Origin: Eledone cirrhosa
Taxonomy: Eukaryota
Direction: 5' to 3'
Length of the DNA stretch: 64,000 nt
Assembly: GCA_964016885.1 (NCBI GenBank)
Contig: OZ024741.1
Coordinates: 299,088,001-299,152,000, forward strand
Shown here: positions 2,234 to 61,110 of the stretch, piece after piece
Layout: each line of letters begins with the position of its first letter
How positions within the stretch are numbered: position 1 is the first letter of the stretch
Made by a program: the position numbers and the translations under genes
The notes under the pieces: generated by a model
The model's database searches: none
What the model was told of the DNA's origin: nothing
The model's input: only the letters and a program-made list of their open reading frames with translations

Positions 2234-2236
<3 letters not shown>
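2133..2236 (+). mobile_element. PLE 3' terminal segment, inverted relative to the PLE body at 1-2125, ending in (TA)n
   Basis: Near-identical to 39593-39696 and related to the Naiad termini at 24068-24170 and 27920-27957 (GGCAA...ATGACCCTCCC-AAGTATAACAATAT). Confidence 0.8.
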
Positions 2237-2418: not shown

Positions 2419-3074
2419 TATATATATATATATACCAGTATGTATCGATTTAAATATATAAACACACACACGCACACAGACATATATACAGTGGTAGATG
2501 GGGATCTTAAAAAAGCGTGGGAACTTATTTATGTCATAAAAATGAGAAAAAATAAATCAAAATTTAGTATCGCTAATGTACAAAGTTTCGTGTTGAAAGC
2601 TGCAGGTGAAACTTCTCCTTGGAAAATATATGGGACTTAAATGTCAAGTGATGGATGTGATGCTTTTGAAAATAGGGGAACCTGTGGTGAATCATTAATT
2701 GCAGAAATTTCGCAGTTTGAGCTATTTCGAAATTTTATAAAGAACCAATTAGATGTTGAGATTTACATCTTATTATAAGTTTACAATGAGGAGGAATCTG
2801 GTGTGTTGTATCATGCTGTTCTTGAAAATACACAGTACTTTAAATATGAACACAATGTACATATGTTTTATTTAAATATAGTTTACATCATCATAAGCTC
2901 TTGCTGGTTTAGAAATCAAAGATACGATGACATATTTAAAACATTAAATCAGGTACATTTGTGTATGTAGGCACCGACTCGTGACACCGAGAGTCAGAGC
3001 TGCGCCGCAGTGATAAGCCATTTCTTCCAAAGAAGTAGACATAAAAAGAGAGAGGGTGATAGAAAGGAAGCGAT

Positions 3075-11280: not shown

Positions 11281-11283
11281 TTC

Positions 11284-16639: not shown

Positions 16640-17987
16640 TCAGTAGCTGATAATTCTCCAAGTACGTCTTCTCGCTTTCCTCTTGACTAAAGGCAATAAC
16701 TCAATGATCTGGAGAAAAGCAACACCGATAGATTCTACAGATGTCCATGAACTGCCCACTGTTCTGTTGTCTTTGAAAATATCTCAACTTTAAACCATGC
16801 ATGTATTCGACAATTGAATGTTAATTGAAGGAAAATATTGAATAATCTCTGTCGTATTCAGTTACGAAATAATATTACTCTTGATTTACATCCCACTCCT
16901 AAAAAATATTTTTAAACTTAAAAAGATGAAGATAAAACTGTTCATATTAGTTAAAATCGAATTCATGTTGATTTAAATGCTAAATATTGCCAACAATAAA
17001 ATAAAATAACCTTCAATTTCTCGATTTCTCGGTAGAAACTAAAAATAGTATGGCGAGAGTTATAGTTTAAGATCACTCGAGAATTGAAAATGTTGATGCC
17101 TGAGAAATATGGAAAGAATTATAATTTAATCTTAACTCTTTTTGCTATGTATGGTTTGTATAATACAACTGTCAAGTGATAGAAATGCCTAAAGATTATA
17201 ATACATACAAGAAAATCTTCGAAAATCTATACAACTTGCCGTTTTTCTTCATTCCTAAATTCATGAAGTAACTCGAAAACTAATATATTATTTAATATAA
17301 AGAGAAATATAATTATATGATTATTGCATTCCACACTCCACGCTGAAAAATCTCCTAGAATGCACATCGTTCAAGGTAAAAAAAAACGAGAAAAAATAGA
17401 ATCTCTTAAGAAATTTGAAAACGACTGACATTAGAATAATACTAAAAAATTCAGTTTCAAAGTGGAATTTTTGTAAAATATTTTGAAGTTTCGCGTACAA
17501 TTCTATAGGCAACAATAAGAGTTATATATACGAATCTACAGACAAAGATTCCAAACAACTATATGTCCACAGATAGCAAGAACCTGTTCGTACTAGCGAG
17601 GGAACTCATAATTAGTGACTCGCCTTACTAGAAATACCAGCCAAATCTCCCCCACATCAATTTGATAGTCTTAAAAAGGGAGACATATCTATTGTTACAG
17701 ACACCTTAGGCTATATGGCTAAATAAGAGCTAAATAAATAAAGCACTATCAACAACTTATAATTCTAGAAATCTATTGTTTTAATAGAATAAAGATGCAT
17801 TGAATAATCTATTTCCGGATATACTAAGTCTGAAAATGAAATGTAACCCATAACGGTCAATTGATAGAATGTCTATTGTATCAGAGTTGATCTCGGCCAT
17901 AACATCAATTCGAAAAACTAGAAAGCATATTCACCAACAAAATAATAATAAGCAACACACACTATAACTATTAAAATCAACTATAAC

Positions 17988-18366
17988 AATTGTTTCTACT
18001 TTTGGCACAAGGCCAGCAATTATCTCAGTGCATTACTAGTACTTTATTTTATCGACCCCGTAAGGATGAAAGGCAAAGTTAACCTCGGCGGGATTTGAAC
18101 TCAGAATGGCAAGGGCCGTAACTCTATGCATCAACGCATGACGTCCGACCCTCTACCGATACTGCCAATCCACATAATAATTGTTTCTACTTTTGGCACC
18201 AGGCTAGCAATTGTCCCAGTGCATTACTGGTACTTTATTTTATAGACCCCGTAAGGATGAACGGCAAAGTTAACCTCGGCGGGATTAGAACTCAGATCAT
18301 AAAGGGAGGTAAGTCTATGCTTCAAAGCATGGCGCCCGACCCTCTACCGATACTGCCAATCCACCG
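17988..18366 (-). mobile_element. Two tandem main SINEs (17988-18172, 18175-18366)
   Basis: Two full consensus matches head-to-tail. Confidence 0.93.
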
Positions 18367-22884: not shown

Positions 22885-23452
22885 AGGCGGTGGATTGGCA
22901 GTATCGGTGGAGGGTCGGACGCCATGCTTTCCAGCATAGTTACGTCCCTTTACGATCTGAGTTCAAATCCCGTCGAGGTTGACTTTGCCTGTCATCCTTA
23001 CGGGGTCGATAAAATAAAGTACCAGTAATGCACTGGGTAATTGCTGGCCTTGTGCCTAAAGTAGAAACAATTATATTATTGAATTGGCAGTATCGGTAGA
23101 GGGTCGGACATGCTTTCCAGCATAGTTACGATCTGAGTTCAAATCCGGCTGGGGATAACTTTGCCTTTCATCCTTACAAGGTCGATAAAATAAAGTACCA
23201 GTAATGTGCTGGGTTATTGCTGGCTGTGTGCCTAATATAGAAACAATTATATTATTGTCTCGGGCGGTGATTTGGCAGTATCGGTAGAGGGTCGGATGCT
23301 ATGCTTTGACGCATGGAGTTACGGCCCTATCCATACGGAGTTGAAATCCCGCCAAGGTTAACTTTGCCTTTCATCCTTACAGGGTCGATGAAATAAAGTA
23401 CCAGTAATGCACTGGTTAATTGCCGGCCTTGTGCCAAATGTAAAAACAATTA
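22885..23452 (+). mobile_element. Three tandem main SINEs
   Basis: Copies at about 22885-23072, 23083-23249 and 23262-23452, each followed by ATTATATT. Confidence 0.93.
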
Positions 23453-23749
23453 TATTCTTCTTTCGTACTGATTTCAACCATGGGTCTGTCTCTATGCGGG
23501 ATTCATTATAATTCATTTTATTGATTTAATTAGAACGAAATGCATCGTGGATAATGAAGTATAATTTGATAGCTTGGTCAGACATAATTACCTAAATGTA
23601 TTTCTCTTTTGTGCCTTCCAACCACTCTCAACGTAGACGCGTTTATGGACCCATAATATGGTCATGCTAAACGCTCAGGTCCTGAGATAATTATGGTATT
23701 ATAAGGGCTTAAAATACTCAAAGCGAGAGTATTTATATTTGTATTATAC

Positions 23750-23940
23750 ATAATTGTTTCTACTTTTGGCACAAGGCCAGCAATTATCCAGTGCATTACT
23801 GGTACTTTATTTTATCGACCCCGTAAGGATGAAAGGTAAAGTTAACCTCGGCGGGATTTGAACTCAGAATGGCAAGGGCCGTAACTCTATGTTAGAAAGC
23901 TTGGCGTCCGACTCTCTACCGATACTGCCAATCCACCACC
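23750..23940 (-). mobile_element. Main SINE
   Basis: Full consensus match. Confidence 0.92.
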
Positions 23941-24036
23941 ATTTGTATCATACATAATCATATTTTATAAGGGTCGATATACGCTTCTATTCTGAACCTC
24001 GTTGTATTAGTATTTTATATATAGATATATATAGAT

Positions 24037-24067
<31 letters not shown>

Positions 24068-24068
<1 letters not shown>

Positions 24069-26280
24069 TTCGTTTCTGAATTTGTTTAGCAAGATTCTTT
24101 ATCTGAAAACGTGTGTTGAAACCGATATTGTTATACTTTGGGAGGGTCATGTTGCCAATAAGAAACGCACGCACCAGTTGCTTTTAATTCAATTTATTAT
24201 AATACATTTATAAATTTTGGAATTTATAAATTTCCGGTTGGTTGGTTCCACAACCAGATGGTTGTTTATATATTGTCAAAGTTCTTTCGTCACACATTCT
24301 GTGACCTTTTCAGTGACTGGGGATTCTTTTCTTTGTTTTTGTGCCTCTCCTTTGTTCTGTCCTACGCCATCTTGTTTCTGTGTGTGTGTTGTGTGCTCAG
24401 TCTGTGCATGCGCCACATCCGGGTGTCTGTGTGTGTTTATATTCGTTTATTTATTTGTTTATTTACATGTTACTGGTTGGTTGTTTGTTCTATGTGCGTG
24501 TGTGTTTTCATTCTGTCCTTGATTGTAAGTTGTGATGTTGCTGTTCCACTCATGTTTTCTATTTAAATTTGGTTGGACTTCATTTATGTTTATTGCATCT
24601 GTAATTTGTCTAAACATTGCATCTTTTCTGTGTGTAGATTCTATTTTTATTTCTATGTTCTTTAATTTACCCTTATGTTCTATTTTAACATGTTGGTAGA
24701 GTACAGATGATTATTTACTATCTTGAAGGTCTCGCCAGTGTTCATTTATCCGTTCCCCTATGCTACGAGCTGTGTCACGTATGTACACTATATTTTTATC
24801 TCTACATTGTCCTTCAGTACATCTTATGCTATATACTACATTTCTAGTTTTACAGTTAATATGGGGGCTTAATTTACAGATTATACATTTCTTATCTATA
24901 CAGGGAAGTCTTTGAAAAGGGTATGTCTTGCTAATAAGTGTTTTTATGGAGGTACCTGGTCTTTCTACTATCTTAATATTGAGTTTATGTTTATCTAGGG
25001 CCCTTCTAAATTTGTAAGCTAATTCACCTCTAGGGGTTGTATCGATGAACATTACACTCTGGTATTTATTGCTATCATACCATGAGTTTATTCGATTAGC
25101 CTTATTCCTAGTTCTTTCTAATCTATTCCAAAATTTGCTCCTATACAAGGGGCAGGTCCCATTTGTGTCATTATTTACCATTTTTTCCCATTTGGTTCTG
25201 GCTCCTCTATACACTCTTATTTTATCTCTCTGATTGTAACCAGAGAACTGCATACGGTGGATGAAGTGTTGTATGTGTCTCTCTAGTTCTTCGGGGTTGC
25301 ACATGCGGGACACGTTTCTCATCACATGTACCAAATCCTCAATCAGTATGTTGATTTTGGTATGGTCCGAAACAGCTGAGTTTCGGTGGATCAGATATTT
25401 GGAAGTCATGGGTTTGGCATAATGGGAATGGAGGATTTGTTTTTTGTTATTAATGGTATCTTTACCAGAGCTCTGTGTCTAGTACGGGTAATCGATGGTT
25501 GGGGTGTTTGCTTCGGTAGTCTATAGTAACTCTAATACTCTGGTGGATGGAGTTAGCTATTTGCTGGATGCTTTCCATTGTGCTTTTCTCTAGTTCCTGA
25601 ATGTTCTCTAGTGGGGTTGTTTTAACTACGATGTCTATATCATCAACGTAGCGGGAGTACATTATCAGGTTTAAGGGGTCTTCTAATTGTTCTTTAAGTT
25701 TAAGTTTAAGTCTACTGTCCCACCATACCATAAATAGGTTAGCTATGTTGCCTGCAATGCTAACACCAATGGCTGCTCCCTCCTCTTGGGCATATGTTTT
25801 TCCATTAAATTTGAACATATGTTCCTCAAGGGTTAATTTTATGATGGCGCCCACCGCATGTGCAATCATTTTCTTTAGTTCATCGTGGTTTTTGGGGGTC
25901 CGTATGGCTCTGATCCACTCGTTCCATCTATCTGTGTGGGTTTTCTTGGCCATTGAGGTAATGGTAGGTGGTCTGCCTCTTGCTGGTCTTGTAGGGCACA
26001 GGTTGCTAAGGTCATATGTATCTAGATAATTATTACTATAGGTAAGTTTAAGTAGGAGTCCCAGCTCACTGGTATCAATCCCACGGAATTCAACATTGCT
26101 CTCACTGATCATTTCTACGCATTTCTCCACAGCAAAATCCACGTTAATAGATGGATACAGGGACATAACATCCATACTACCTATTATGCAGTCTCTTAGG
26201 TCCCTAGATCGGTTACTCTCGCCGATTCTGCTGAGGAGGTCCTCCGTGCTGTCACATACATCTGGGGACATTTCAATTAT
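24068..26280 (-). mobile_element. Naiad-like PLE, left arm of a 3.9-kb foldback (RT C-half, GIY-YIG, 3' UTR, long terminus)
   Basis: ORFs 25462-26298 (MDVMSLYP, GAAIG, YVDD, LPVLD) and 24711-25409 (MQFSGY, NVVYSIRC, VYIRDTARSIGER). Confidence 0.95.
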
Positions 26281-27949
26281 GGAAAAACATATGCCCAAGA
26301 GGAGGGAGAAGCCATTGGTGTTAGCATTGCAGGCGGCATAGCTAACCTATTTATGATATGGTGGGACAGTAGACTTAAACTTAAAGAACAATTAGAAGAC
26401 CCCTTAACCCTGATAATGTACTCCCGCTACGTTGATGATATAAACATCGTAGTTAAAACACCCCCACTAGAGAACAGCCAGGAACTAGAGAAAAATACAA
26501 TGGAAAGCATCCAGCAAATAGCTAACTCCATCCACCAGAGTATTAGAGTTACTATAGACTACCCAAGCAAACACGCCAACCATCGATTACCTGTACTAGA
26601 CACAGAGCTCTGGTAAAGATACCATTAATAACAAAAAACAAATCCTCCATTCCCATTATGCCAAACCCATGACTTCCAAATATCTGATCTACCGAAACTC
26701 AGCTGTTTCGGACCATACAAAAATCAAGATACTGATTGAGAATTTGGTACAGGTGATGAGAAACGTGTACCGCATGTGCAACCCCGAATAACTAGAGAGA
26801 CACATACAACACTTCATCCACCGTATGCAGTTCTCTGGTTACAATCAGAGAGATAAAATAAGAGTGTATAGAGGAGCCAGAACCAAATGGGAAAAAATGG
26901 TAAATAATGACACAAATGAGACCTGCCCCTTGTATAGGTGCAAATTTTGGAATATAATAGAAAGAACTAGGAATAAGGCTAATAGAATAAACTCATGGTA
27001 TGATAGCAATAAATACCAGAGTGTAATGTTCATCGATACAACCCCTAGAGGTGAATTAGCTTACAAATTTAGAAGGGCCCTAGATAAACATAAACTCAAT
27101 ATTAAGATAGTAGAAAGACCAGGTACCACCATAAAAACACTTATTAGCAAGACATACCCCTTTCAAAGACTTCCCTGTATAGATAAGAAATGTATAATCT
27201 GTAAATTAAGCACTCATATTAACTGTAAAACTAGAAATGTAGTATATAGCATAAGATGTACTGAAGGACAATTTAGAGATAAAAATATAGTGTACATAGG
27301 TGAGACAGCTCGTGGTATATGGGAACGGATAAATGAACACTGGCGAGACCTTCAAGATAGTAAAGAATCATCTGTACTCTACCAACATGCTAAAATAGAA
27401 CATAAGGGTAAATTAAAGAACATAGAAATAAAAATAGAATCTACACACAGAAAAGAGGCAATGTTTAGACAAATCACAGAGGCAATAAACATAAATGAAG
27501 TCCAACCAAAATTAAATTGAAAACATGAGTGGAACAGTAACATCACAACTTACAATTAAGGACAGAATGAAAACACACACGCACATAGAACAAACAAACA
27601 ACCAGTAACATGTAAATAAACAAATAAATAAACGAATATAAACACACATAGGGACCCGGATGTGGCGCATGCGCAGACTGAGCACACAACACACACACAG
27701 AAACAAGATGGCGCAGGACAGAACAAATGAGGGGCACAAAAACAAAGAAAAGAAATACCAGTCACTGAAGAGGTCACAGAATGTGTGACGAAAGAACTTT
27801 GACAATATATAAACAACCATCTGGTTGTGGAACCAACCAACCAACCTGAAATTTATAAATTCCAAAATTTATAAATTTATTATAATAAATTGAAGTAAAA
27901 GCAACTGGAGCGTGTGTTTCTTATTGGCAACATGACCTTCCCAAAGTAT

Positions 27950-27957
<8 letters not shown>
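26281..27957 (+). mobile_element. Naiad-like PLE, right arm (inverted, more 5'-truncated, short terminus)
   Basis: ORFs 26353-26616 and 26825-27520 (YIGETARG...EAININEVQPKLN); reverse complement of about 24125-25804. Confidence 0.95.
27761..27803 (+). ncRNA. Minimal hammerhead ribozyme in the PLE 3' UTR
   Basis: GTCA-CTGAAGA-G-GTCACA gaatg TGTGAC-GAAA-GAAC-TT-TGAC: 4-bp stem I, extra nucleotide after A9, vestigial stem III. The left-arm copy (24275-24317, minus) has CTGAAAA. Confidence 0.7.
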
Positions 27958-28021
<64 letters not shown>

Positions 28022-28025
<4 letters not shown>

Positions 28026-28212
28026 CGAAGGAATTGTGGTAAGGAACCAGATGGACCATAACGCCCTAGATTACTCAATACTTAGTTTAGTAGAGTGGGT
28101 AATAGAAAAAAGTATGACCCTGACGGCAGAGCTCAAGTCGTTTCGACGGATATTTCAGTCCAGAAATAGCCGTCGAAACGCCTTGAGCTCTGCCGTCGGA
28201 GTCATTCTTTTT

Positions 28213-28949: not shown

Positions 28950-29905
28950 TCTCTCTTTCTCTTAATTTCGACTATATTTTTTTGACCGGCCACCTTCCTG
29001 GTAGCAAGGTTGTAAAAGAAAAGAAATTGTCATCCCTTGAATCGCAAGAATGTTTTGCAAATCTTGAAGGTGCCAGCTATCGCAGCCATTTGTAGACTAT
29101 GAATTAGGGAGCTGCGTTCTTTGTCCGCAAATCCAAGTTCAGTCATACGTTTATCCAAGCGGGTTGGTATATAACCCGTAGCTCCAATAATTGTTTCTTC
29201 TTTAGGCACAAGGCCAGCAAATACCCAGTTCATTACTGGTACTTTATTTTATCGACCCCGTAAGGATGAAAGGCAAAGTCAACCTCGGTGGGATTTGAAC
29301 TCAGATCGTAAAGAGACGTAACTATGCTGGAAAGCATGGCGTCCGACCCTCTACCGATACTGCCAATCCACCGCCCGTAGCTCCAATAATGATGGGTATG
29401 AAGCTAAAGGTGTATCTTGGATACTGGATTTGTAAACTCCTCATCAATGGTCCGTAGATGTCCCCCCTCTCCTGTATTTTTCTGACAACGTTTACATCAA
29501 GTGGGCAGCTGATCTCCACAACAGAACACGTTTTCAATGTGTGGTCCCAAACAACAATATCAGTCCGGCTGTGCTTTAATTTGGTGAGAGTTTTTATTTT
29601 AAGGTTCCACCAGTATTCCTTAGTGCCATCTGTCTCAATATATTCTTCCTCGTTTGTTGTCAATTTTGTTTTCTGAAGTGCGATACAGATGGTTCTAGCT
29701 ATCCCATCGTGTCTTATGGGGAGGTAGTAGCGAGATGACATTCTTTCGCAGCTGGCAACAATGTGGCTTACATCCTCGATCTTTGTTTTACATAGCCTAC
29801 ATTTATTGTCAGCGCTGATGGCCCTCCCCTTTTGTGCAGCAGATATTTGGTAGGGAGTTCTTGCATTGCATAGAGATATCCCTCAAGGTGTGATGTCATA
29901 AACTT
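28950..29905 (-). mobile_element. R4/Dong LINE 3' portion (CCHC finger plus restriction-like endonuclease) with nested SINE
   Basis: CRLC...EDVSHIVASC, RHD, RTDIVVWD, VVEISCP, IPIIIGATG; reading continues after the SINE to KICKTFLRFKG*. Confidence 0.9.
29187..29374 (-). mobile_element. Main SINE with TSD CCCGTAGCTCCAATAAT
   Basis: The 17-mer is repeated at about 29175 and 29374. Confidence 0.95.
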
Positions 29906-30042
29906 GTATGTATGTATGTATGTATGTATGTATGTATGTATGTATGTATGTATGTATGTATGTATGTATGTATGTATGTATGTATGTATGTATGTATGTA
30001 TGTATGTATGTATGTATGTATGTATGTATGTATGTATGTATG
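29906..30042. repeat. (TATG)n tetranucleotide microsatellite
   Basis: About 34 perfect units. Confidence 0.97.
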
Positions 30043-30056
30043 CGTGTGTGTGTGTA

Positions 30057-30242
30057 TAATAATTGTTTCTACTTTTGGCACAAGGCAAGCAATTTCCCAG
30101 TGCATTACTGGTACTTTATTTTATCAACCCCGTAAGGATGAAAGGCAAAGTTAACCTCGGCGGGATTTGAACTCAGAATGGCAAGGGCCGTAACTATGCC
30201 TCAAAGCATGGCGTCCGACTCTCTACCGATACTGCCAATCCA
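30057..30242 (-). mobile_element. Main SINE
   Basis: Full consensus match. Confidence 0.92.
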
Positions 30243-30523
30243 ATAAGCAAGAAAGGTGGTTTCATTTTTACGTCCCTATTTATTTTGTTATACTTATTTA
30301 AAATACGTGAGGCAGTTGTATAACAACTGTCCTATGTGTTCTCTTCAGACAAAAATCCAAACGAGATGTTAAGTTCCATTGATATATTATCAGTCATACG
30401 TGTTATTCGCTTCACCGACCAGTAAGCATATGTCCAAAATTCTCAGGTAGCAGTTCCTATATATTCGGGAGATCGATATTCCAATTGGCGTTGGTGCTTG
30501 TGAACTGGCTAGGGTATAACTTG

Positions 30524-30555
<32 letters not shown>

Positions 30556-30580
30556 CGTGTGCGTGTGTGTGTGTCACATG

Positions 30581-30624
<44 letters not shown>

Positions 30625-30688
30625 CATGTGAAACACACACACACACACACGCGCGCGCGCACGCGCGCGCGTGCATACACATAATATG

Positions 30689-30739
<51 letters not shown>

Positions 30740-31380
30740 ATGTGTGTGTGTTTGTAGAGCAAGATTACATGGAATAATATTATCAACTAATACTAGTTTC
30801 AAGCTCAACATGTTAATGTCATTTTAGGTAGAAATAGAAATTCAGAAGAAAGGTTAGATAATTATGATGGAAAAGGTCAGCGACATATAGTAACCCAGAG
30901 CATATATAACAATATAAACTGACAGATTAGAACTCGTTTAAATAATTTAATTCCAATACATATTTAATCAATGTTTATGGCATAGCAAATTTAAAAGAGG
31001 ATAAAACATCATTATCCTCAAGTGCTGCATTAGAAGCACTATATATTACCGTTATTCAGTATACTTAAAAAAACGATTTAATTAAGAATGCCTGTCGTCT
31101 ACATTCTTAATTATGGTGATATACAGAATTTGATAATGTTTTATCTTCTACGAAATTGGACATGACATAAAACACAAACATTACTTAAATATAATGTTTT
31201 GAAACATGTAAACCCATTTAATAATTTAAAAGAATTTATATTCTACCCTCCTATCACGTCTTTTGTCCATGTTATCACTTAGTTCGTTGACGAATGTTGA
31301 TTGAAACGATTAACATTATTATATATCATAATTAATTGTTTCTATTATATATTATAATTAATGATATTATTAAAACAAAA

Positions 31381-31775
31381 AATAATTGTTTCTAGTTTTT
31401 GGCACAATGCCAGCAATTACCCAGTGCATTACTTGTACTTTATTTTATCGACCCTGTAAGAATGAAAGACAAAGTTAACCCCAGCGGGATTTGAACTCAT
31501 AATGGCAAGGGCTGTAACTCAATGCGTCAAAGCATGGCGTCCGGCCCTCTATCGATACTGCAAATCCACTGCCATTAAAAAAATAATAATTGTTTCTACT
31601 TTTGGCACAAGGCCAGCAATTACTCCAGTGTATTACTGGTACTTTATTTTAACGACCCTGTAAGGATGAAAGGCAAAGTTAACCTCGGCGGGATTTGAAC
31701 TCAATCCGTAAAGGGACGTAACTGTGCTGCAAAGCACGGCGTCCGACCCTCTACCGATAATGCCAATCCACCGTC
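31381..31775 (-). mobile_element. Two tandem main SINEs
   Basis: Copies at about 31381-31573 and 31587-31775. Confidence 0.92.
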
Positions 31776-37724: not shown

Positions 37725-39696
37725 CACAGACTGAGCAACTTTATAGACATAGTAAGAAAACCAATTCTCAAACACATACCAAGCCTTGTAAGAGACGATC
37801 TGGACCTCTTAATCCACCTCCCCAAACATGTCAACAACGACACTATTATTGTGTCTTTCGATGTAGTGAATCTCTATACAACGATCCCACACCAGTACGG
37901 ACTAGAAGCAACAGGATTCTGGCTAGAGAAATATCCCAATGAGATACCTGGCAGAATAGAAAAAATCTTCATCACCGAGGGATTAAAATTTATCTTACAG
38001 AACAACTTTTTTTGATTTCGATGGTAGTACTTACAAGCAAATATCGGGGACTGCGATGGGTACAAAAGCCGCTCCAACTTATGCCAACTTAGTCATGGCA
38101 TACTTAGAAGTCCAGATATATCAACAGTCCAAATCAAAATACGGATTGAACTTCCACAAACATTTATCAGAGAATTGGAAACGCTACTTGGATAATTGTC
38201 TCATTCTTTGATCCCACACACTCAACCAACTGAATGAGTTCAAAAATTTAATTAACGGCATCAATAACCACATCCAATTCACAATGGAATACAGCCAAGA
38301 TCAACTCCCATTTCTGGACATCTTAATCTTAAAAAAAGACACAAATATTGAAACTGACATACACTACAAACCAACAGATTCCAAACAATACCTGCTATTC
38401 ATCTCCAACCATCCAAAGCACAAGAAGACGAACATTCCTTTTAACCTAGCAAGAAGAATTTGCACAATTGTCTCCAATTATGAAACGCGAAATAAAAGAC
38501 TTCAAGAATTAAAGGAAATTCTACTCGAAAGACAGTACCCACCATTACTAATAAATAATGGAATAGAAAGGGCTAAAGCAATAGGCATTGATGAATTAGG
38601 AAAACAGAAACAACTGCAAGGTACTACAATATGCTATCATATATGTCAACACACAACCCAAGAAATGCGGAAGCTTACAACACTATTCACAAGAACATCC
38701 CACTATTGAAACAAGAGCAAAGAATGAAAAAAGCCCTTGAAACACACAAAATAATCAAAAGCAAAAGACAACCAAAAACACTGAAAACATTACTCACCAA
38801 TGCCAAATTACCTACCACAAACCCACAACCAACTGTCAAAAAATGTGGTCGCTCTAATTGTGAGACCTGCACTCACCTCATTGAAGGCAACACCTATACA
38901 TGTCAATCAGGACTAAAAAATCACTTCACTTGCTCATCAAAAAATCTAAGTTATGCCATTAAATGTAAAGGGTGCAATAAAGATTATATAGGACAAACTA
39001 AACTCACACTCAAAAACTGAATGACAGTTCATCGCCAACAATTACGAGATCCAACCACGAGAGAGATACCACTAAGCACACATCTAGACATATGCGCAAG
39101 TCCAAGTCTTCCCATTTTACCTTTGCGCTGACAATACAAAAGAACAAATACGAATAAATAAGGAAAATATGTTTATTCAAAAATATAGACCAGCATTAAA
39201 TATGGTTTAATATACATTATGTCAACACCATAACATGCTAACCATACTCCCACACACACATAACACGCATACACACACACACATGACGCCCCCCACACAC
39301 ACAAATCCCTCCCCCATTTCTACTAATAGAATCACTTTCCTACAAACATACACACACAAAATATATATATTCTCTCCATCTTAACATACTCCCACACACA
39401 CACACATAACACCCATACACACACACACAGATGTGCAACGAAAGATTTATGATAAACTATATATATGCGTTTGTGTCTATATTGTATCTGTATTATTTTT
39501 GACCGTCGGTCAGTCAATGGCAACATTGAGGACCCAGTAAGTTAGATAAAAGACACAGAAGCGAGAAGCGAAAACCAACCAAACAGTGAGTGTGTTCTGT
39601 TATTAATTCTGGCAATATTACACAAATATGACCCTCCCCAAGTATAACAATATTTGTTTCGTCACACGATTTCATATAAAAAACCTCGCAAAACTA
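37720..39696 (+). mobile_element. Penelope-like element of a second clade (Neptune/Poseidon-like), 5'-truncated, flanked by (TA)n
   Basis: SFDVVNLYTTIPH, GTAMGTKAAPTYANL, WKRYLDNC, LPFLDI, SNHPKH, CGRSNCETC, YAIKCKGC..YIGQT; frameshifted. Confidence 0.92.
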
Positions 39697-39759
39697 ATAT
39701 ATATATATATATACATAAATACACACACGTTCTTCCTGTTCCGTATAACCATTACCAGT

Positions 39760-39986: not shown

Positions 39987-40069
39987 TTATTAAAATAACA
40001 GATTAAAGTTTAAGCAAAGAATCGGTGCTTTAGCCCTCTTTGGATTTTAGTCTTCAAATTTATTATTAT

Positions 40070-40072
<3 letters not shown>
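39987..40072. repeat. Family A mini-element (inverted short end joined to long end) in (TA)n
   Basis: Both ends match parts of 2289-2418 in opposite orientations. Confidence 0.7.
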
Positions 40073-40120
<48 letters not shown>

Positions 40121-43754: not shown

Positions 43755-46700
43755 AAGGTAAGTGACCCTGTCTCACTTGCCCCGTTTTTCATCCAACATG
43801 GCCATACTCAGAATAGGTAGTATAAATGCACGTAGCCTGGGGTCATCTTGGAAGCAGGGTCACCTGCTTAACGACCTCAGGTCACTAAACATAGATGTGG
43901 TGGCCATCAGTGAGACCAGAATCTCCGAAGCACAAGCCTTCGCACTGATCTTCGGCGGCTACGATGTATACGCATCTCCCAGCCGTCCAGTATCGGGGAG
44001 GGGTTGTCGTCCTTTTTCGGAGAGGCTTGGATCTCGCCATACGGGCCATCTTCCTATATCCAGAAGGTAAGTCGGTGGTGCTGGACGTGACCGGCAGCGA
44101 AGGCAATGCTTTCAGGGTAGTAGCCGTCTACGCATAACAGAGGCAGGACGGACAGATTTCTTCAGACGTCTAGAAACCTTTCTTGGAACGTCCCGCTCTT
44201 TAGTGTTAGTGGGCGACTGGAACGGTATCTTGGATGCACGCTGGGATTGTGAGGGGCTAGTAGATAGGGGAGGAGGGTGCAAGAGCCTCACCAACCTGCT
44301 CAGACGTTTTGAACTGTCTGACAGGTATCGACTGGATCACCCGAATGTGCCAATGTGGACATGGACAAACCGCATCGGGTCATCCAGATCGTATCTCGAT
44401 AGGGTATTCTGCAGAGAACTAGATAAGGCTAGTATAAGTTGTCCACAATTTAAAATAGTCGACTACACAGACCACAAATTTGTCATCTGTGAGATCGACA
44501 TAGACAGACTTCATAGACAAGGGCCTGGTTACTGGAAGCTGAACGCGTCTTTCCCGGCACGCAAAGCCTACAGAGACCGGATTAGCGTATTAGTTAAGCG
44601 GGCGTTGACGGAAGCGGCCATCAACAACAGGTGGTGGTTCGCCCTGAAAAGGGCAATTAAAGTAGAGTCGATTAGGTTTAGCAAAGGAATAGTGATAGAG
44701 GAAAATAGAGTAGAGGGAGAGCTAGTCAGAAAGCTAGAAGAGGCGTTTAGGACAGGCATCGCAACCGACGTGCTTGCGGCGAGATTGGCACTCGACCAAT
44801 TCTTCAACGCAAAACACGAAGGCTGCGTTGTCAGAGCTAGAGCGCGTGCTCTGAAACGCGAGGGGACGAAAGCCGTCCAATGGGCCAGGGTGGTGGAGGT
44901 GCGACGTGGCAACAAAGCCACAATTCGGTCTTTGTCTGACCAAAACGGGTGCGTGTTGCTCGAACCCGAGCAGATGTATGAGGCTTTTCAGCAGCACTTT
45001 GCTGAACTGTTCGGGAGCGGCGGCGGGTCGAATCGGGGTGTGGACTTCAGTGCATACCTCGACGGACTGCCTCGGCTCTCGACGACCGCAGCGCAGTGTT
45101 GCGAAAAGCCAATAACAGCCGGTGAAATACGGGAAGCGATGCCTAACTACACGAGGGGTAAATCGCCAGATTTGGACGGTCTGCCCTACGAGCTTTATGC
45201 ATTTATGCCAGACTTGTTCGGTGACCTCTTGGCAGACGTCTACTGCAACTGGCAGCAGAGCGGGAGCATTCCCAGTTTTGTGAGCCGGGGAGCGGTGGCG
45301 CTGCTGAGAAAAGACCCGAACAAGGGGGATGTTATCGATAACTTCAGGCCCATAACTCTGCTAAACGCAGAGTTCAAGATTTTGGCCAAGGTGTTAGCAA
45401 CGAGGTTGGTGCTTGTCGTCGAGGGTCTGGTGGGAAGGCGGAGACATGCGCCATTCCGGACAGATCCATACACGACAACCTCCACATCATGCGATACATC
45501 GTAGAGAGGGTGGTTAAGGAACCTGGCACGGGTGGGGCCCTGATCAACTTGGATCAATCCAAAGTATTCGATAGCGTCGACCATCGGCACCTGGCGGCGG
45601 TCCTCGAGGCAGCCGGTTTCGGGCCCGTTTTCAGGGGTTGGATCGCTGCGATGTACAGCGACATCTGCTCAGTTGTGAGGGTGAACGGTCACCTGTCGCA
45701 GCCGTTCAGCATCATGCGCTCAGTCCGCCAGGGTTGTCCCCTCTCGTCCCTCTTGTACTTATGGGCTCTCGAGCCGTTACTGCACAAACTGAGGGCGATG
45801 AGGGGCATCCCACGCGAACTAGGATGCGGGAAATCCGAGTCGGCTTACGCCGACGACGTCACCGTGGTGGTACCAAGAACCAGACACGTCCAGATGCTCG
45901 GCACCGCTCTCAAGGAATACAAAGCGGTGACAGGAGCAAATATAAACCAGGAAAAGTTGGTAGGTTTGCAACTTGGCACCTGGAGAGGCAAGTCCATGCC
46001 GTCCGACAGCGTCCTGGTGCGTTGGACGGACGGACCAGTTAAATTTCTCGGGTTCTGGTTCGGACCGGACCTCCAGATGGAGAAAAACTGGAACGAGGTG
46101 ACGAGCAGGGTGGCCTCCCTGACCAAGAAATGGGCCGAGAGTAAGCTGTCCCTGAAAGGCCGGGCGGGGGTGGCGAATGCGTACATCGCATCCGTCATCT
46201 GCTACCGCCTCTCCGTCGTCCCTTGCTCCAGCCCATCTCTCACCAAAATGGAGTGCCTCCTCTTCCGCTTTTTGTGGAAGGGACGCGCTCCCATGGTCAG
46301 ACGATCCATCTGCTGTCAACACCCGTTGCGTGGAAGACTGGGCATGCCATGGCTGATGATGCGCAACATGTGCTGAAGCTGCGACATCTCTGGTGCTTCC
46401 TTGACGGGAACAGGTGTGGTCGCCGTTCGCCAGGCACGTTTTCCAACAGCTCGTCTCCTTGACGGAGCTGCAGTCCTGGGTCAGAAAAAGACCGAGTGAT
46501 AGCGCTTGGAAACTGGAATGTCTCCAGGCGCTCACTGCTCTCTGCCAGCTGGGCACCAGTATCGGTGGAACATCCACATCGGCCTTCTATAGAGGACTAG
46601 TGGAGGGGAGGAGCGACGACGTTCTCGGAGATATCCTGGCCGTCGAAGAAGATCAGCTGTTTGCTCTCTTCCGGAGAACTTTCAGCCCAGGGCCTATGGA

Positions 46701-47523
46701 TAACTTCCAAAAATCCCTGGCCTGGCAGTGCTACCGGGGAGCGTTGCCGGTTCGAGATAAGCTCTACAGGCACGGAAGTGCCGTCAGAGGAGCCTGTCCG
46801 TGATGCGCGTAGAGCGACGAAACCGTCGTGCACGCACTCGTTCAGTACCTCAGCGTTCCTGATTTGTGGAGCTTCTGTCGAACAGTTGCTGTCGCGTGTA
46901 GGACTGATCCGGTTATCGACTGAGTCCATTGTGCAGATGGTCTCGCCTTCTTCCTTTGAGGAGAAAGGGCAGGCGGTTTTCATTTGCCTGGTGGCAATGG
47001 CGAAAGAGATTGTGTGGTGGACAAGGCTGAAAGGATTAAAGACACACACTTTCCTCTTCGGCGAATCCCTAATTAACTTTTTCAAGTTTCAATTTGAAGA
47101 GGAAAATCAGGGTGGAGAGGCAAGTGCTGCCTTCTAGCAAGTTTGTTGAAAGGTGGGTGAATGTAGCGAGAATGGTCCGAGAGAACGGGACCGCTCTGAA
47201 TATACGCCTATAGTTTGGGAAATGGAAACATTGAAAGAGGGCGCTTGCCCTGGTGGTCAGGGTGGCCGTGGTCTTTGTGTGGTTTTCGCCACGAGTAACC
47301 CTCGGAGGTTTCCCCTTATTGGGGAATTTTTCATTGTTTCAATTTTCATTTTTATTGTTTATATATATATATGTTTCTATGTCCTTTTTTTTCTTTTCTT
47401 ATATAAATAATAAAAATATTTACACGCACAAAACCCACATCGTACCGTCCTGTACCGTCCTGTACCATCCTGTGCCGTCTGTAATGTTTTTCTGGATGTC
47501 AGCCCTTGTGGCGAATAAAGAAA

Positions 47524-47573
<50 letters not shown>
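43755..47573 (+). mobile_element. Tx1-like LINE, whole ORF2 (ATG 43798 to about 47212, frameshifted), 3' UTR and (ATT)n tail; ORF1 absent
   Basis: SINARSL, ISETR, GDWN, SYLDRVF, TDHK, FRPITLLN, LDQSKVFD, RQGCPLS, YADD, zf-RVT. Confidence 0.95.
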
Positions 47574-50500
47574 GGCGACTACGTAGTAAATCGTATCATC
47601 GTGAGCTCCGCAAAGGTTTGTTGTTTTCAGTTGTTTAAAATTGTCATTTATGGAAAAAAATTTTATTGTTAACTGTATATGAGTGCACATACATTGTTTT
47701 CTGAAAAGGACACTCAAAAGGATTGGGGCCTTGAGCCCAAAATTTAAACTTTTATAATTATCAAACAAAAAGAAAATTTCTTTGGAAAATCATGGCCGAC
47801 TCAAAGCTGAACCCAGTAGCTGAGAGCCTTCCTCACAAACTAACACCTCACACTGACACCACCATTGTAAATATTACTACGTTTGCCAACCCTAAAAATA
47901 TAAGCAGTAGCAATATTTTAAATTTGTCTCAGGCAGACATTCATTTCCCGCCATTACCAATGACTGCAGGTGTTGAAGCCACCACCCCCACCACCACTAC
48001 AGCGACAACAGAAACAAAAGAAAAAAAAAATTAACTCGTGATATCGAAATGAATTCAACCAAAATGAACTCTTCCACACCGAACACCACTGACGCCACCA
48101 CCACCACAACTGAAACTAAAATTAACAATAACAAAAATAACAATGACAACAACATCAACAATGAATTTAAGATAAATACCCTGTCTTTTGAGAGAGTAGC
48201 AAAAATATGCGAAACGATCCTGGTAACTCACGAGGAATTAGAAGAAGCCAAAAGAATGGTAAAGAAAGATGGGTACAGGGTCAGACTCCCCCCCCACCTA
48301 ATAAAATGGAGCATCGTTGCCTATCTACCGTGTCTTATCGGACAATTAACATAAAATCGCGCCGAGTGAAACGGGCATCCGAGTCCCAAATCCAAAAAGC
48401 TTTGGGACATGTGTGGGCAAAGAAAACCCACATCAGACGTGGGCAGAAATATGGAACCGTGGACGTGTTCTTTGAAACACCACAGGAGGCCAGAGAACAT
48501 CCATGGCCCCATTAAGAAGTGACGACTTCACACTCGTCCCAAGATATTGTGGCCAGAGACTCGTAAAGAACAGGGTGACCCACGTTCCTCCGGCCATCGA
48601 AATTCCTTGGCTAATGGCTGCTGTCCTCGAGGCCAACACCAAGATAATCGAAATAGCGAAAGAAAAGCAGGAGAACTGGTCCGGATCTGGGATGGAGCTC
48701 CTGATCGAAGCGGATAAAAGCATTGAGGAGATCCCATAGATAATAGACCTCACCTACGGCAGCCACCTCACCGCAATCGTCGAGAGCAGAAGGCCTAGGT
48801 GTGTCGTTTGTGGCGAAGGAACCCATCTAAAGACTTTCTGCCCTCAGGCTAAAAGGTTGAGGCCACCTCTCTTACCCACCACAGTGACTCAACCATCAAC
48901 ACCACCAGCAGCAGAAATAGCAGCAACAACTGTAGCAGCAACAACAGAAGCAACTGTAACAGCAACAACCGCAGCAACAGTAGCAAAACCAACACCACCA
49001 CCACCCAACGCGCCAGAACTAGCACCAGCGCTTACACCATCCACCACGCCACAACGAAAACTAACGCCTGTGGAGGATTTTCCACTCCCCGGCCTATCGC
49101 AACTGGAGACAGATTGTGACGACGAGGAGTGGGAAACGATATCAGGAAAAAAGAAAAAAAGAAACCAAAAAAGAAAAAAACTCTCTTCCTTCCCCCTCCA
49201 AAAACAAAATACAGAGGGAAACAAATAAACTATCAAACAAAAAAGTTAGAACAGACATGCCACCATCCACACCAGCATCACCAACCCCATCGCCCCAAAC
49301 ACCAACACCATCACCATCATTAACCCCAACACCACATTCACCTACACCACAAAAGGCACCAACATGCGAAACAGAAACAAACCCACAAAAAACGCAAACA
49401 AAACAAAACAACCAAAACGATACACACTACACAGCATTAAATTTGAACAACAACCAATTATTACACTACATCTAACTCAACACCAGCATCACAGAAAAAG
49501 ACTACACAACAACCCAAAAGTTCACACCACTTCCATACATACAAATCACTCGCATCACACAGAAAACGTACATGACACTGAAACAAACATTTCCCAAAGA
49601 CATCGGAGACTTCCGACAAGCACTCTCCAGGAGGATTTATAAGGACATCCTTCTTGAGGAGGCCACAAACAGTGAAAAGGATGGAGAAACCGTCCATCCT
49701 CTACGAGAAGTAATGTAAGTGGTTTTTCCCATCTTTTCCACTCCATTTCAACATGACCTCACTCAGAGACGGACAAGCTTTCAGGTTAGTGGCCGTCTAT
49801 GCCCCGACAGGAGCAGGGCGGCCTGATTTCTTCCGGCGTCTGGAGACCTTTCTTGGAACGTCCCGCTTTTTGTGTTAGTGGGCGAGTGGAACGGGATCTT
49901 AGATGCACGCTGGGACTGTATGGGATTAGTGGATAGGGGAGGAGGGTGCAAGAGTCTCGCCAACTTGCTCAGGCGTTTTGAACTGTCTGACAGGTACCGA
50001 TTGGATTTCCCGAATGTGCCAATGTGGACTTGGACAAATCGCATAGGGTCATCCAGATCATATCTAGATAGAGTATTTTGTAGGGAAATAGATAGGTCTA
50101 GCATAGGATGTCCACAATTCAAGATAGTCAGCTACACGGACCACAAATTCGTGATCTGTGTGCTTGACTTAGATAGGCTTCATAGACGAGGACCCGTCTA
50201 CTGGAAGCTAAACGCGTCCTTACCAGCGCGCAAGGCCTACAGAGACCGGATTAGCGAACTAGTTAAGCGAGCGTTGACGGGTCCATCGTCAACTACAAGT
50301 GGTGGTTTGCTCTGAAAAGAGCAATTAAAATAGAGTCCATTACGTTTAGTAAGGCTTTAGCAATAGAGAAAAATAGAGCAGAGGGAGAATTAGTTAGAGA
50401 ATTAGACGAGGCGCTTAGCAAAGGCATCGCGACCGACGTACTTGCGGCGAAATTGGCCCTTGACCAATTCTTCAATGCAAAGCACGAAGGCTGCGTTGTC

Positions 50501-53132
50501 AGAGCTAGGATGCGTGCTCTCAGACACGAGGGGACGAAAGCCGTTCAATGGGCCCGAGTGGCGGTGGTGCGTCGTGGCAACAAAGCCACGATCCGGTCTT
50601 TGGTGGACCACGACGGGCGCATGCTACTCGATCCCGGGAAAATGTGTGAAGCTTTTCAGCAACACTTCGCACAGCTGTTCGGGGGCAGCGGCGGGCCGGA
50701 TCGAGGGATGGACTTTAGTTTCTATCTCGACGGACTGCCGCGGCTATCGGCCACTGAGGCGCAGTGCTGCGAAAAGCCGATAACAGCCGCTGAAGTACGG
50801 GAGGTAATGACTGACTGCACAATGGGTAAATCGCCTGGTTTGGCTGGTCTGCCCTATGAACTTTACGTACTGATGCCAGACTTGTTCGGAGGCCTCTTGG
50901 CGGACGTCTACTGCCACTGGCAACAGAACGGGAGAATTCCCATCTCTGTGAGCAGGGGAGCTGTGGCGCTGCTGAGAAAGGATCCGAACAAGGGGGATAA
51001 CATAGATAATTTCAGGCTCATAACTCTGCTAAACACAGAGTTCAAGATTTTGGCCAAGGTGCTAGCAAAGAGGTTGGCGCTTGTCGTTGGTGGTCTGGTG
51101 GCAGAGTCGCAGACATGCGCCATTCCCGACAGATCCATCCACGACAACCTCCACCTCATGCGATAGATCGTAGAGAGGGTAGCTAGGGAACCTGGCACGG
51201 GTGGGTCCTTGATCAATTTAGATCAGTCGAAATCTTTCGATAGGGTCGACCATCGTTACCTAGCGGCAGTCCTGAGGGCGGCTGGCTTTGGGCCCGTCTT
51301 CAGAGGCTAGATCGCTGCCATGCACAGCGACATCTGTTCTGTGGTGAGAGTGAACGGTCACCTTTCGGAACCGTTCAACATCATGTGCTCAGTCCGCCAA
51401 GGATGTCCCCTGTCGTCCTTCTTGTACGTATTGACTCTCGAGCCATTACTTCACAAACTGGAGCCGTTGGGGGGGGGGGGGGGTCCCGCGCGAACTAGGG
51501 TGTGGAAGATCCGTGTTAGCATATGCGGACGATGTCACCGTAGTGGTGTCGAGCGCCAAACACATCGAGGCGATCGGCACTACACTAAGAAAATACGAAG
51601 CGGTGACAGGAGCAATGATCAACCAGGAAAAGTCAGTGGGCCTGCAGCTCGGCACCTGGAGTGGCAGGTCCATGCCGTCCAACAGCGTCGTCGGGCGCTG
51701 GACGGACGGACCGGTTAAATTGCTAGGGGTCTGGTTCGGTCCTGACCTCCAGACGGACAAAAAGTGGGACGAGGTGACGAGCAGGGTGGCTTCTCTCACC
51801 CAGAAATGGGCGGAGAGGAAGCTATCCCTGAAAGGTCGAGCGGTGGTGGCTAACGCGTACATCGCGTCCGTCATCTACTACCGCCTGAACGTCGTACCTT
51901 GTCCTAAGCCCCGCCTGACTCCGCTGGAGCGTTTGCTCTTTCGCTTTTTGTAGAAGGGACGCGCTCCTAAGGTCAGGCGGTCCATCTGTTGTCAACACCC
52001 GCTACGTGGAGGGCTGCGCATGCCGTGGCTGATTTTGTGCAGACACGCGCTCAGGATACGACATCTCCAGCTCTTCCTTGACAGTGATCAGGTGTGGTCG
52101 CCGTTTGCTAGACACGTCTTTCCCCAGCTCGTCTCCTTTACGGAGCTGCAGTCCTGGGTCAAGCGAAGACCGAGAGGGAGCGATTGGAGTCTGGAATGTC
52201 TTCCGGCGCTCACAGCCCTCGACCAATCGGGCAATGTGATCGGTGGAAACTCCACCTTGGCGTTCTATAGAGGATTAGTAGAGGGGAAGAGAGACAACGT
52301 ACTCTAGGCGTCGACGAAAATCAACTAGCCAAACTCTTCGGAAGGACTTTCGGGCCGGGGCCTATGGACAACTTCCAGAAATGCCTGGCCTGGCAGTGCT
52401 ACCATGGAACTTTGCCAGTTCGGGATAAACTCTACAGGCATGGAGGTGCCGCCAGCCGTGCATGTCCGAGATGCGCGCAGGGCGACGAAACCGTCCTGCA
52501 CGCACTCGTCCAGTGTCCGAGCATTGCTGACTTGTGGGTTTATGTCGAACACCTGCTGTCACGTGTAGGACGGATCCAGCTAACAGCTGAGTCCATCGTG
52601 AGGATTGCCCCGCCCGTCTTCCTGTAGCCGGAAAGGGCAGGAAGTTTTTATCTGTCTGGTGGCCATGGCAAAAGAGATAGTATGGTGGACACGTTTGAAA
52701 GGGCTGAAGACGAGCACTTACCTCTTCGGTAATGCCCTGATTAACTTTTTCCAATTTCATTTGAAAAGGAAAATCAGGGTAGAAAGGGAAGTGCGCTCTT
52801 CCCAGCATTTTGTTGAAAGATGGGTGAGAGAAGCAAGTATGGCCCGAGTGAATGAGCCTACTCTGAGTATGTGTCTGTAAATTAAAGGTGGAAAACTGGG
52901 AGAGGACACTTGCCCTGGTGGTCAGGGTCACTGTGCCCTTTTAATGGGCTTTCTCCACAAATGTCCCTCGGAAGTCTCCCCCCTATTGGTGAATTTTTTA
53001 TTGTTATTTTTTATTACATCCTCTGTTTTTTTTACACGCAGAAATGCCCATTTGTACCGTCCTGCACTGTCCTTAATGTCTACTTTATGTAAACCCTTGT
53101 GGTTAATAAAGAAAGCATTATTATTATTATTA
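47574..53132 (+). mobile_element. Near full-length Tx1-like LINE: ORF1 about 47792-49720, ORF2 49753-52880 (deletion in the EN domain), (ATT)n tail
   Basis: ORF1 CVVCGEGTHLKTFC knuckle and Thr/Pro-rich region; ORF2 motifs as in the upstream copy; several stops and frameshifts. Confidence 0.95.
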
Positions 53133-53294: not shown

Positions 53295-53353
<59 letters not shown>

Positions 53354-53356
<3 letters not shown>

Positions 53357-53395
53357 CGTTTCTGAATTATTGGCAACATGACCCTCCCAAAGTAT

Positions 53396-53403
<8 letters not shown>
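53354..53403. mobile_element. 50-bp remnant made only of the two termini of the 24068-27957 foldback PLE
   Basis: TTTCGTTTCTGAATT matches the left end at 24068; ATTGGCAACATGACCCTCCCAAAGTATAACAATAT matches the right end at 27923-27957; (TA)n on both sides. Confidence 0.88.
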
Positions 53404-53490
<87 letters not shown>

Positions 53491-60389: not shown

Positions 60390-61110
60390 CAACTTGTCTT
60401 TCTCTATGAATTGTTTGTGTTTGACATATGAATGTGTGTTCGTGCATGTGTGTTGTGTATGTGTGTTCGTGCATGTGTTTGGCATGTGTATGTGTGTTCG
60501 TGCATGTGTTTGGCATGTGTATGTGTGTTCGTGTATGTGTCTATGCTCTGTGTGCGTGTTTGCATGTCTACTTCTCTATTGGGGCCTTCCTTTATATTTT
60601 TCTTTTTCTTATGTCTTCTATACTCTCCTCAGTTGTTAAGTTCTGCGGTATCGCTGTTATTATACTTATTAAAGGTTTTCTGTCTCGGACTACTCTCTAT
60701 TATATCATACATATGTCATGCTTAATTTGTCTGCGTGTTGTGTCTGTTCTGTGCGTGAATAGGATCTTTACTTCTATGTTAACTATTGATGGCCGCTGTT
60801 CGAATTTGTCATGTTGGTAGGCAACAACGAGCATTTCTCCTCTTTGAGTACTCGTCAGTGTCTCTTTATCCTCAATTCTATAATACTGGATGTCTATTTG
60901 ATATATGTCGCTGTTTCTGCACCACCTATCTGTACACTTTACCCGGCAGACTACATTCCTAGTTTTGCAGTTCAACTGTTGGTTTACATTATACAATATG
61001 TAGTTTCTATCATTACAGAGTGTTTTCTTAAAAGGGTATGATATATTGATCAGGGGTTTAACGGGTGTTTCTGGTTTTTATACTACTTTAATTCGTAGGT
61101 TCAGATCATC
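60390..61110 (-). mobile_element. Decayed Naiad-like PLE 3' fragment (GIY-YIG region plus UTR with a tandem repeat of about 30 bp)
   Basis: IKVVKTRN..TPLTPDQ, NCKTRNVVCRVKC, YQHDKFE, NIEVKI, RQIK align with 26825-27520. Confidence 0.8.

What the first reader, a model, noticed from the sequence alone, without database searches (positions are those of the whole stretch)
53354..53403. A 50-bp element that is only the two ends of the 3.9-kb PLE foldback
Seen: 15 nt identical to the left terminus (24068) fused through shared ATT to 35 nt matching the right terminus (27923-27957), in (TA)n, 25 kb away. This shows the short and long end positions are reproducible in an independent insertion. Inference: either an extremely abortive two-ended integration or microhomology-mediated collapse of a palindrome.
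Basis: partly seen in the sequence, partly recalled or inferred. Interest (0 to 1): 0.7.

Follow-up and report, generated by a model that had tools for sequence, protein, structure and literature searches.

The report
Shortest two-ended Penelope retrotransposon insertions
This 50-base piece is one of hundreds of tiny insertions made of just the two ends of an abundant Penelope-type jumping gene, likely left when copying began from both sides of a cut TA repeat and stopped almost at once, which gives a testable clue to how these elements insert.

Summary
The piece is not unique. The genome holds about 14,400 long (A) ends and 16,800 short (B) ends of this Penelope-like family in (TA)n. There are 435 matches of the mini form, and 16 of the first 100 carry this exact joint. 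Lengths run from under 30 bp to 5.7 kb. End pairs are A+B in 48 of 51; no A+A or B+B minis exist. A and B lie 60 nt apart at the start of the ORF, each at the only two AATATCG words in the unit. Joints carry 2-5 nt of microhomology in 63 of 69 (null 19%), some with templated inserts. Subfamily markers stay linked across the two arms, even where the arms do not overlap. Best reading: two cDNAs primed from both strands of one cut, probably on one RNA, cut short and joined by end-joining. Later collapse of a longer copy is not excluded. The tail and two start sites are published, and this scan already noted two-ended footprints on other DNA of this genome.

The parts
53354..53368 (-). A stub: 15 nt, antisense copy beginning at the long (tail) end, ORF position +83 back to +69
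   Evidence: Identical to 24068-24082; position in the ORF from natural copy L250/L005
53367..53400 (+). B stub: 34 nt, sense copy ending at the short end (ORF +23); holds the ORF start codon at 53378-53380
   Evidence: 34/34 identical to the left-arm internal copy, 33/34 to the right terminus; the ORF of L250 starts here
53367..53368 (.). 2-nt microhomology (TT) at the joint
53298..53353 (.). Left (TA)n target flank, 56 nt pure
53401..53487 (.). Right (TA)n target flank, 87 nt pure; its first TAT equals the letters that follow B in the element
24068..27954 (.). 3.9-kb head-to-head copy of the same family: antisense A arm 24068 to about 26280, sense B arm about 26279-27954; inverted repeat about 1.68 kb at 95.7%; RT and GIY-YIG-type ORFs broken by stops and frameshifts
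24068..24127 (-). One-sided 60-nt tail (sequence between the B and A start sites)
27761..27805 (+). Minimal hammerhead-like motif about 170 nt upstream of the start codon (predicted; no Rfam hit)
   Evidence: motif match; one search found no hammerhead family

Best explanation
The 50-bp piece is the short end of a length continuum of A+B insertions of a Penelope-like retrotransposon (likely Neptune-type), and it likely formed when both strands of a cut (TA)n each primed a cDNA, one at each of two fixed start sites 60 nt apart on probably the same RNA, and the two very short cDNAs were then likely joined by microhomology-mediated end joining. SHOWN: fixed A and B ends; strict A+B pairing; both sites lie in the first 83 nt of the ORF and share AATATCG; (TA)n targets; microhomology and templated inserts at joints; marker linkage between arms; the same joint on two subfamily backgrounds. 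INFERRED: endonuclease cleavage of both strands, probably staggered by about 12 nt; pairing of the TA primer end with ATAT in the RNA; one RNA rather than two; Pol-theta-like joining; early stop or trimming at insertion rather than later deletion; strand displacement (or a second RNA) for long copies whose arms overlap.
For: Counts: 14,435 A ends and 16,836 B ends, controls 0. Pairing: inward-facing neighbours under 7 kb in the first 32 Mb of C1 gave 48 A+B, 3 A+A, 0 B+B among 95 A and 100 B ends (p 2e-11 against 1:1). Minis: 435, 59 and 95 matches for three A+B patterns (partly overlapping) against 0 B+B and 0 A+A. Joints: of 88 minis, 69 simple joins, 63 with 2 nt or more of overlap against 19% for random joins; 19 scored as inserts, 7 with 8 nt or more copied from the adjacent A end or TA flank. 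The exact joint occurs with marker T (10), C (4) and A (1), and C occurs in at least 9 joint classes. Arms of one insertion: A arm C gives B end C in 29 of 32, against a background of 8 of 100. Short inserts scored at two different sites, mostly with non-overlapping arms: B-arm C goes with A-arm allele A in 10 of 17 and with allele T in 0 of 49 (hand count, 29 of 95 rows uninformative; p 9e-8), the same haplotype as in long arms (46 of 47 C arms). AATATCG occurs exactly twice in 4,139 nt of L250, at B and A. In a sister family the tail ends sit at other TA/TAT words, and it also makes minis (4). Duplicated interrupted flanks: 10 of 152 against a shuffled mean of 1.0, four of them 12 nt. Frangieh 2024 (PMC11167929): the purified PLE protein cuts and extends both strands and uses two adjacent internal start sites.
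Against: Deletion inside a long palindrome gives the same joints and keeps the same linkage. One-ended A stubs running into TA are common: about 22 of 31 distinct C1 loci by hand count, 2 of 4 inspected being clean A-only, against 58 two-ended matches on C1. Collapse predicts such stubs too. Breaks at TA repeats repaired by MMEJ are documented (PMC13645644, abstract). 3 of 32 arm pairs are discordant. Absence of A+A and B+B minis could partly reflect instability of perfect hairpins. Several loci with an interruption near the joint show no flank duplication. Frangieh reports no primer-template homology and no strand difference in start site in vitro. The RNA fold around the sites is not significant (z -1.6). 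No empty or longer allele was examined.
Confidence: 0.65

Rival explanations
1. Post-insertion collapse: a longer head-to-head copy broke later (hairpin or TA-repeat fragility) and microhomology-mediated repair deleted everything but the two ends.
For: It predicts the same microhomologies, templated inserts, A+B ends and marker linkage. One-ended stubs exist. MMEJ at TA-repeat breaks is known (PMC13645644, abstract only).
Against: Near-perfect palindromes persist in numbers: 21 of 50 simple long copies have near-symmetric joints. Minis are not detectably older: 16 of 88 vs 8 of 54 have an edit in 17 unselected letters, p 0.65, weak power. The TA flanks survive on both sides (6 nt or more in 74 of 83). 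Many minis keep 32-40 nt of B while lacking most of the tail outside the stem, which is not the stem-base pattern expected from hairpin slippage (my inference).
Confidence: 0.17
2. Dual priming: two separate RNAs, usually from the same active source locus, are each primed by one strand of the cut.
For: It explains long copies with overlapping arms without strand displacement, and the 3 of 32 discordant pairs. The idea is proposed for L1 (PMC2837659, passages).
Against: Two free RNAs should give A+A and B+B as well, unless the protein dimer is asymmetric; these are nearly absent. Joint positions of the two arms are correlated (rho 0.53, n=50; pooled from three selections, 7 complex rows dropped, partly driven by natural palindromes).
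Confidence: 0.12
3. The mini is its own non-autonomous family (MITE-like), copied as a unit from one founder.
For: The exact joint recurs (15 of 88). Local tandem copies exist.
Against: 37 joint classes among 88. The same joint occurs on both C and T backgrounds. It has no terminal inverted repeats. Its A stub is antisense, so an RNA of the mini lacks the paired start sites (inference).
Confidence: 0.03
4. Assembly collapse of a palindrome between TA tracts.
For: The flanks are long (TA)n; this locus was not spanned by reads.
Against: About 20 raw reads in each of X21, X22 and X23 cover the A-arm side of the stretch, and a contig of X19 matches across the joint. Another mini joint (24098 to 24161, 4 shared letters) is reported in all four runs.
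Confidence: 0.02

Closest known systems
Typical EN+ Penelope-like insertion: inverted 5'-truncated copy with a one-sided 30-40 bp tail (PMC8557442 passages and section 11; PMC3846280 passages)
   Same: Head-to-head arms; a tail on one end made of the next codons of the ORF; terminal repeat containing the ORF start; microsatellite targets; palindromes at some joints.
   Different: The tail is 60 nt. Arms shrink to under 20 nt, so no inverted repeat remains. These papers (passages seen) describe the tail as optional and propose endonuclease resolution or self-priming on an antisense template, which cannot make non-overlapping arms in one step.
Poseidon of Anolis in vitro (Frangieh 2024, PMC11167929; main text read)
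   Same: Two adjacent internal start sites early in the ORF that bound the tail; both strands cut and extended; AT-rich target; dimer predicted.
   Different: There the start site is not homologous to the cut DNA and does not differ between strands. Here both sites share ATAT with the target and are paired strictly one A with one B. Their model invokes second-strand synthesis and does not treat two-ended stubs.
L1 twin priming and dual priming (PMC2837659, abstract and passages)
   Same: Both strands prime cDNA; inverted pieces joined at microhomology; very short variants known.
   Different: In L1 it is a minority route with a variable second site and non-overlapping arms. Here the second site is fixed, it appears to be the normal route, and long arms overlap.
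Theta-mediated end joining (PMC12426944, passages)
   Same: Short microhomology plus small inserts templated from the flanks.
   Different: Enzyme involvement was not tested; RT template jumping could give similar joints.

Membership tests
EN+ Penelope-like element (parent family) | Single ORF with RT and C-terminal GIY-YIG endonuclease | tested here: met
   RT motifs, with Pfam RVT_1 E 4.6e-5 below the cut-off; C-terminal VIY..YIGET..R..EH motif read from translations; no Pfam GIY-YIG hit; frames broken in all copies seen
EN+ Penelope-like element (parent family) | CCHH motif with the two cysteines between GIY and YIG | tested here: inconclusive
   By eye: one Cys just before the GIY-like motif and two between it and YIG, two His after; not aligned to reference PLE endonucleases
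EN+ Penelope-like element (parent family) | Terminal repeat includes the ORF start; partial tandems | tested here: met
   L005/L250 read through both end sites into the ORF; ATG 23 nt before B
EN+ Penelope-like element (parent family) | Inverted 5'-truncated copy with one-sided tail | tested here: met
   48 of 51 pairs A+B; tail 60 nt rather than 30-40
EN+ Penelope-like element (parent family) | Hammerhead ribozyme in the terminal repeat | tested here: inconclusive
   Core motif with stems I and II matched; Rfam gave no hammerhead hit at E up to 1; activity untested
Neptune clade | CX2-5CxxC linker between RT and endonuclease | tested here: met
   C-X4-C-X2-C in three copies; feature taken from PMC8557442
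Neptune clade | Placement in an RT phylogeny | not tested
   No reference PLE set was at hand
Hydra clade | Under 3 kb, CxCX5C linker, DKT motif | tested here: not met
   Unit about 4.0 kb, CX4CxxC linker, DKS motif; features
MITE / non-autonomous unit | Terminal inverted repeats and one uniform founder sequence | tested here: not met
   No terminal inverted repeats; 37 joint classes in 88; same joint on two marker backgrounds
L1-type twin priming (works like) | Two inverted non-overlapping pieces of one RNA within a target duplication | tested here: inconclusive
   Met in layout for minis; not met for long copies, whose arms overlap; target duplication only partly visible; single RNA inferred from linkage

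The most novel reading that the evidence does not exclude
For this clade, insertion is obligatorily two-ended: one protein dimer on one RNA pairs each cut (TA)n strand with its own ATAT-containing start site, one A and one B, makes two cDNAs with no conventional second-strand step, and leaves the host's theta-mediated end joining to fuse them. The hundreds of 20-100 bp stubs are frozen records of the first few dozen nucleotides of that reaction.
Probability: 0.45. Interest if true: 0.7.

Novelty: new variant of a known kind. Interest (0 to 1): 0.47.

Why it matters
How Penelope-like elements make their inverted, tailed insertions is a stated open question (PMC8557442, PMC11167929). The stubs bear on it because their arms do not overlap: fold-back copying and arm-to-arm gene conversion cannot explain them or their linked markers. 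They give three predictions for the existing in vitro system: A+B pairing, primer-template ATAT homology, and both arms from one RNA. Inserts this short are also likely to be missed or misread in repeat annotation (inference).

Tried and rejected
Rfam on 23900-28100: only two spurious mir-297 hits on TA/CA runs. Pfam: weak RT hits only. RNA fold of 401 nt around the start sites: not significant, no shared structure claimed. The age script was faulty (all distances zero) and was redone, which showed no difference. TA flank length, A side vs B side: no difference (median 20 vs 20). Orthologous site: the run search found two holders from one sample, possibly the assembly's own source, and only small shares elsewhere; RAD reads and short contigs were not expected to span the TA tracts, so the allele test was not done. 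The 'shared ATT' joint was rejected. Derivation from the 3.9-kb neighbour in particular is unsupported: the mini equals the common family sequence. Literature searches found no description of ultra-short two-ended PLE stubs. The library lacks most subscription papers, and I read no supplements; Fig. S2 of PMC11167929 could bear on this. PMC9977147 (passages) reports de novo PLE insertions of median 128 bp, described as 5'-truncated. The retrozyme preprint 10.64898/2026.07.22.740005 and PMC13282606 (passages) added nothing on mechanism. A sequence look-up in the scan's notes gave nothing. No fold, complex or protein-database search was run.

Full report
OBSERVATION. Window 53354-53400 is 15 nt identical to the left end of the 3.9-kb element (24068) and 34 nt matching its right end (1 mismatch; none against the internal copy in the left arm), overlapping by TT, between pure (TA)n tracts of 56 and 87 nt. 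The 3.9-kb element is a head-to-head pair of a retroelement with RT and C-terminal GIY-YIG-type motifs. Its inverted arms are 1.68 kb at 95.7%, and the left end carries 60 extra nt. I call the long end A and the short end B.

THE FAMILY. Exact patterns find 14,435 A ends and 16,836 B ends abutting TA, with reversed controls at 0. In the first 32 Mb of C1 (95 A and 100 B ends from the listed matches), adjacent inward-facing ends under 7 kb were A+B 48 times, A+A 3 and B+B 0, with lengths 45-5,725 bp and median 574. About half the ends were unpaired, as expected when exact patterns miss mutated ends, though some copies are one-ended. A near full-length natural copy (L250) shows that the B stub holds the ORF's start codon, with B at +23 and A at +83. 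A hammerhead-like motif lies about 155-170 nt upstream (no Rfam hit). The CX4CxxC linker and about 4-kb unit fit Neptune rather than Hydra; no phylogeny was made.

THE MINIS. The joined pattern has 435 matches, control 0, and 16 of the 100 listed have this exact joint. Two further patterns add 59 shorter forms and 95 with a longer A arm, partly overlapping with the first. The mirror patterns B+B and A+A give 0 and 0. I fetched 94 of the 100 listed matches and dropped 6 tandem or segmental duplicates, leaving 88. Of these, 69 are simple joins, and 63 of the 69 have 2-5 nt of microhomology, against 19% for all possible random joins. 19 were scored as carrying inserts; some of those are point mutations near the joint, and 7 copy 8 nt or more of the adjacent A end or TA flank. 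That is the signature attributed to polymerase theta (PMC12426944, passages). The form is real DNA: about 20 raw reads in each of three other samples cover the A-arm side of this stretch, one contig matches across the joint, and another mini joint is reported in all four runs.

NOT ONE CLONAL FAMILY. A C/T marker in the B stub splits the exact-joint class (10 T, 4 C, 1 A) and C occurs in at least nine joint classes. Joints therefore arose repeatedly at the same few microhomologies.

BOTH ARMS FROM ONE SOURCE. I examined 69 copies selected for C in the A arm; 32 had a callable B end, and 29 of those were C. Background at B ends is 8 of 100. Unselected copies were T/T in 25 of 26; the other, C/T, is the same locus as one of the three discordant selected copies. 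Gene conversion between arms could do this. But in short inserts a second marker in the tail is linked to the B marker: C in 10 of 17 with allele A and 0 of 49 with allele T (hand count, 29 ambiguous rows left out; Fisher p 9e-8). Long arms carry the same haplotype (46 of 47). These are different sites, mostly in non-overlapping arms, so conversion or fold-back copying cannot explain the link.

START SITES MATCH THE TARGET. AATATCG occurs twice in 4,139 nt of L250, exactly at B and A, so each end shares ATAT with the (TA)n primer. In a sister family (window 838-2236 and 39625-39698), tail ends fall at +67 before TA and at +81 before TAT. Six of eight fetched read-through loci end at +81, one continues into the ORF with TAT and one diverges. 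This sister also has minis (4). Flanks show matching interruptions on both sides in 10 of 152 insertions (a few loci counted twice) against a shuffled mean of 1.0 (maximum 5 of 300 shuffles). Four of the ten are 12 nt, but several loci contradict a duplication, so a 12-nt stagger is only suggested.

MECHANISM. Frangieh 2024 (PMC11167929; parts 1-2 of 4, the whole main text) showed that a PLE protein cuts and extends both strands and starts at two adjacent ORF-internal sites bounding the tail. The genome data extend this. One strand primes at A and the other at B, probably on one RNA. The two same-sense cDNAs can meet only at chance complementarity, and the host joins them. The minis are the cases where both stopped or were trimmed early. 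Long copies with overlapping arms would need strand displacement or a second RNA, which is not shown. Their joint positions are correlated (rho 0.53; 21 of 50 within 30 nt vs permutation mean 9.8; 7 of 57 complex rows dropped), partly because natural palindromes act as hot spots.

AGAINST. Deletion within a longer palindrome yields the same joints and linkage, and TA repeats are fragile and repaired by MMEJ (PMC13645644, abstract). One-ended A stubs are common: about 22 of 31 distinct C1 loci by hand count, though only 2 of 4 inspected were clean A-only. Minis are not detectably older than long copies (16 of 88 vs 8 of 54, p 0.65), and symmetric palindromes persist, but neither point is decisive. 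No allele comparison was possible. The in vitro paper reports no primer homology and no strand preference. An earlier model has self-priming on an antisense template (PMC3846280, passages); it cannot give non-overlapping arms without a further deletion.

NOVELTY. The element class, inverted layout, tail and two start sites are published. Six searches found no account of ultra-short two-ended stubs, of strict A+B pairing or of arm linkage; supplements were not read. The scan's own unreviewed notes report two-ended footprints in other families of this genome (consulted after my reading was formed; not counted as support). What this case adds is the non-overlapping minimal class, the cross-arm linkage there, the absence of A+A and B+B, and the shared start motif. 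Verdict: real, a new variant of a known kind, interest 0.47.

Noticed in passing
window 838-2236 and 39625-39698: Sister PLE family (about 70% identical in the ORF) with the same B site but different tail ends (+67 and +81); it also forms minis
   Followed up: partly
L009, L011, L020, L026, L027, L123, L130, L140: Recurrent perfectly symmetric joints at natural palindromes 141, 150 and 162-166 nt from the A end (overlap 14-35 nt)
   Followed up: partly
L122, L131, L132, L146: B arms with internal tandem duplications or jumps, suggesting template switching during synthesis
   Followed up: no
L084, L085, L272/L273, L277/L278; joints: Minis duplicated locally in tandem, either within kb-size repeat units or separated by short TA
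   Followed up: no
L109, L114; joint 24125-24125: A second B end facing outward just past the TA flank, i.e. repeated insertion into the same tract
   Followed up: no
L250:1-5260: Copy whose sense arm stops about 75 nt before B, followed by a tract of over 2 kb of interrupted TA repeats; its ORF has an Asn/Thr/His-rich low-complexity stretch before RT, recalling the N-rich inserts of rotifer Penelopes (PMC3846280)
   Followed up: no
L305:1500-1640: A stub of this family joined through TA to a piece of the sister family: either chimeric or nested
   Followed up: no
window 2376-2430 and 40032-40080; also left flank of L137: Another repeated end abutting (TA)n, unrelated to A or B; possibly a further TA-targeting element
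   Followed up: no
window 60700-61092: Diverged fragment of a related GIY-YIG region
   Followed up: no
window 8898-13250 and 44071-52940: Several broken copies of an unrelated LINE with endonuclease/RT frames, in both orientations
   Followed up: no
window 17975-18364, 22890-23456, 23746-23936, 29186-31773: Dispersed SINE-like repeat of about 190 nt, some copies in tandem
   Followed up: no
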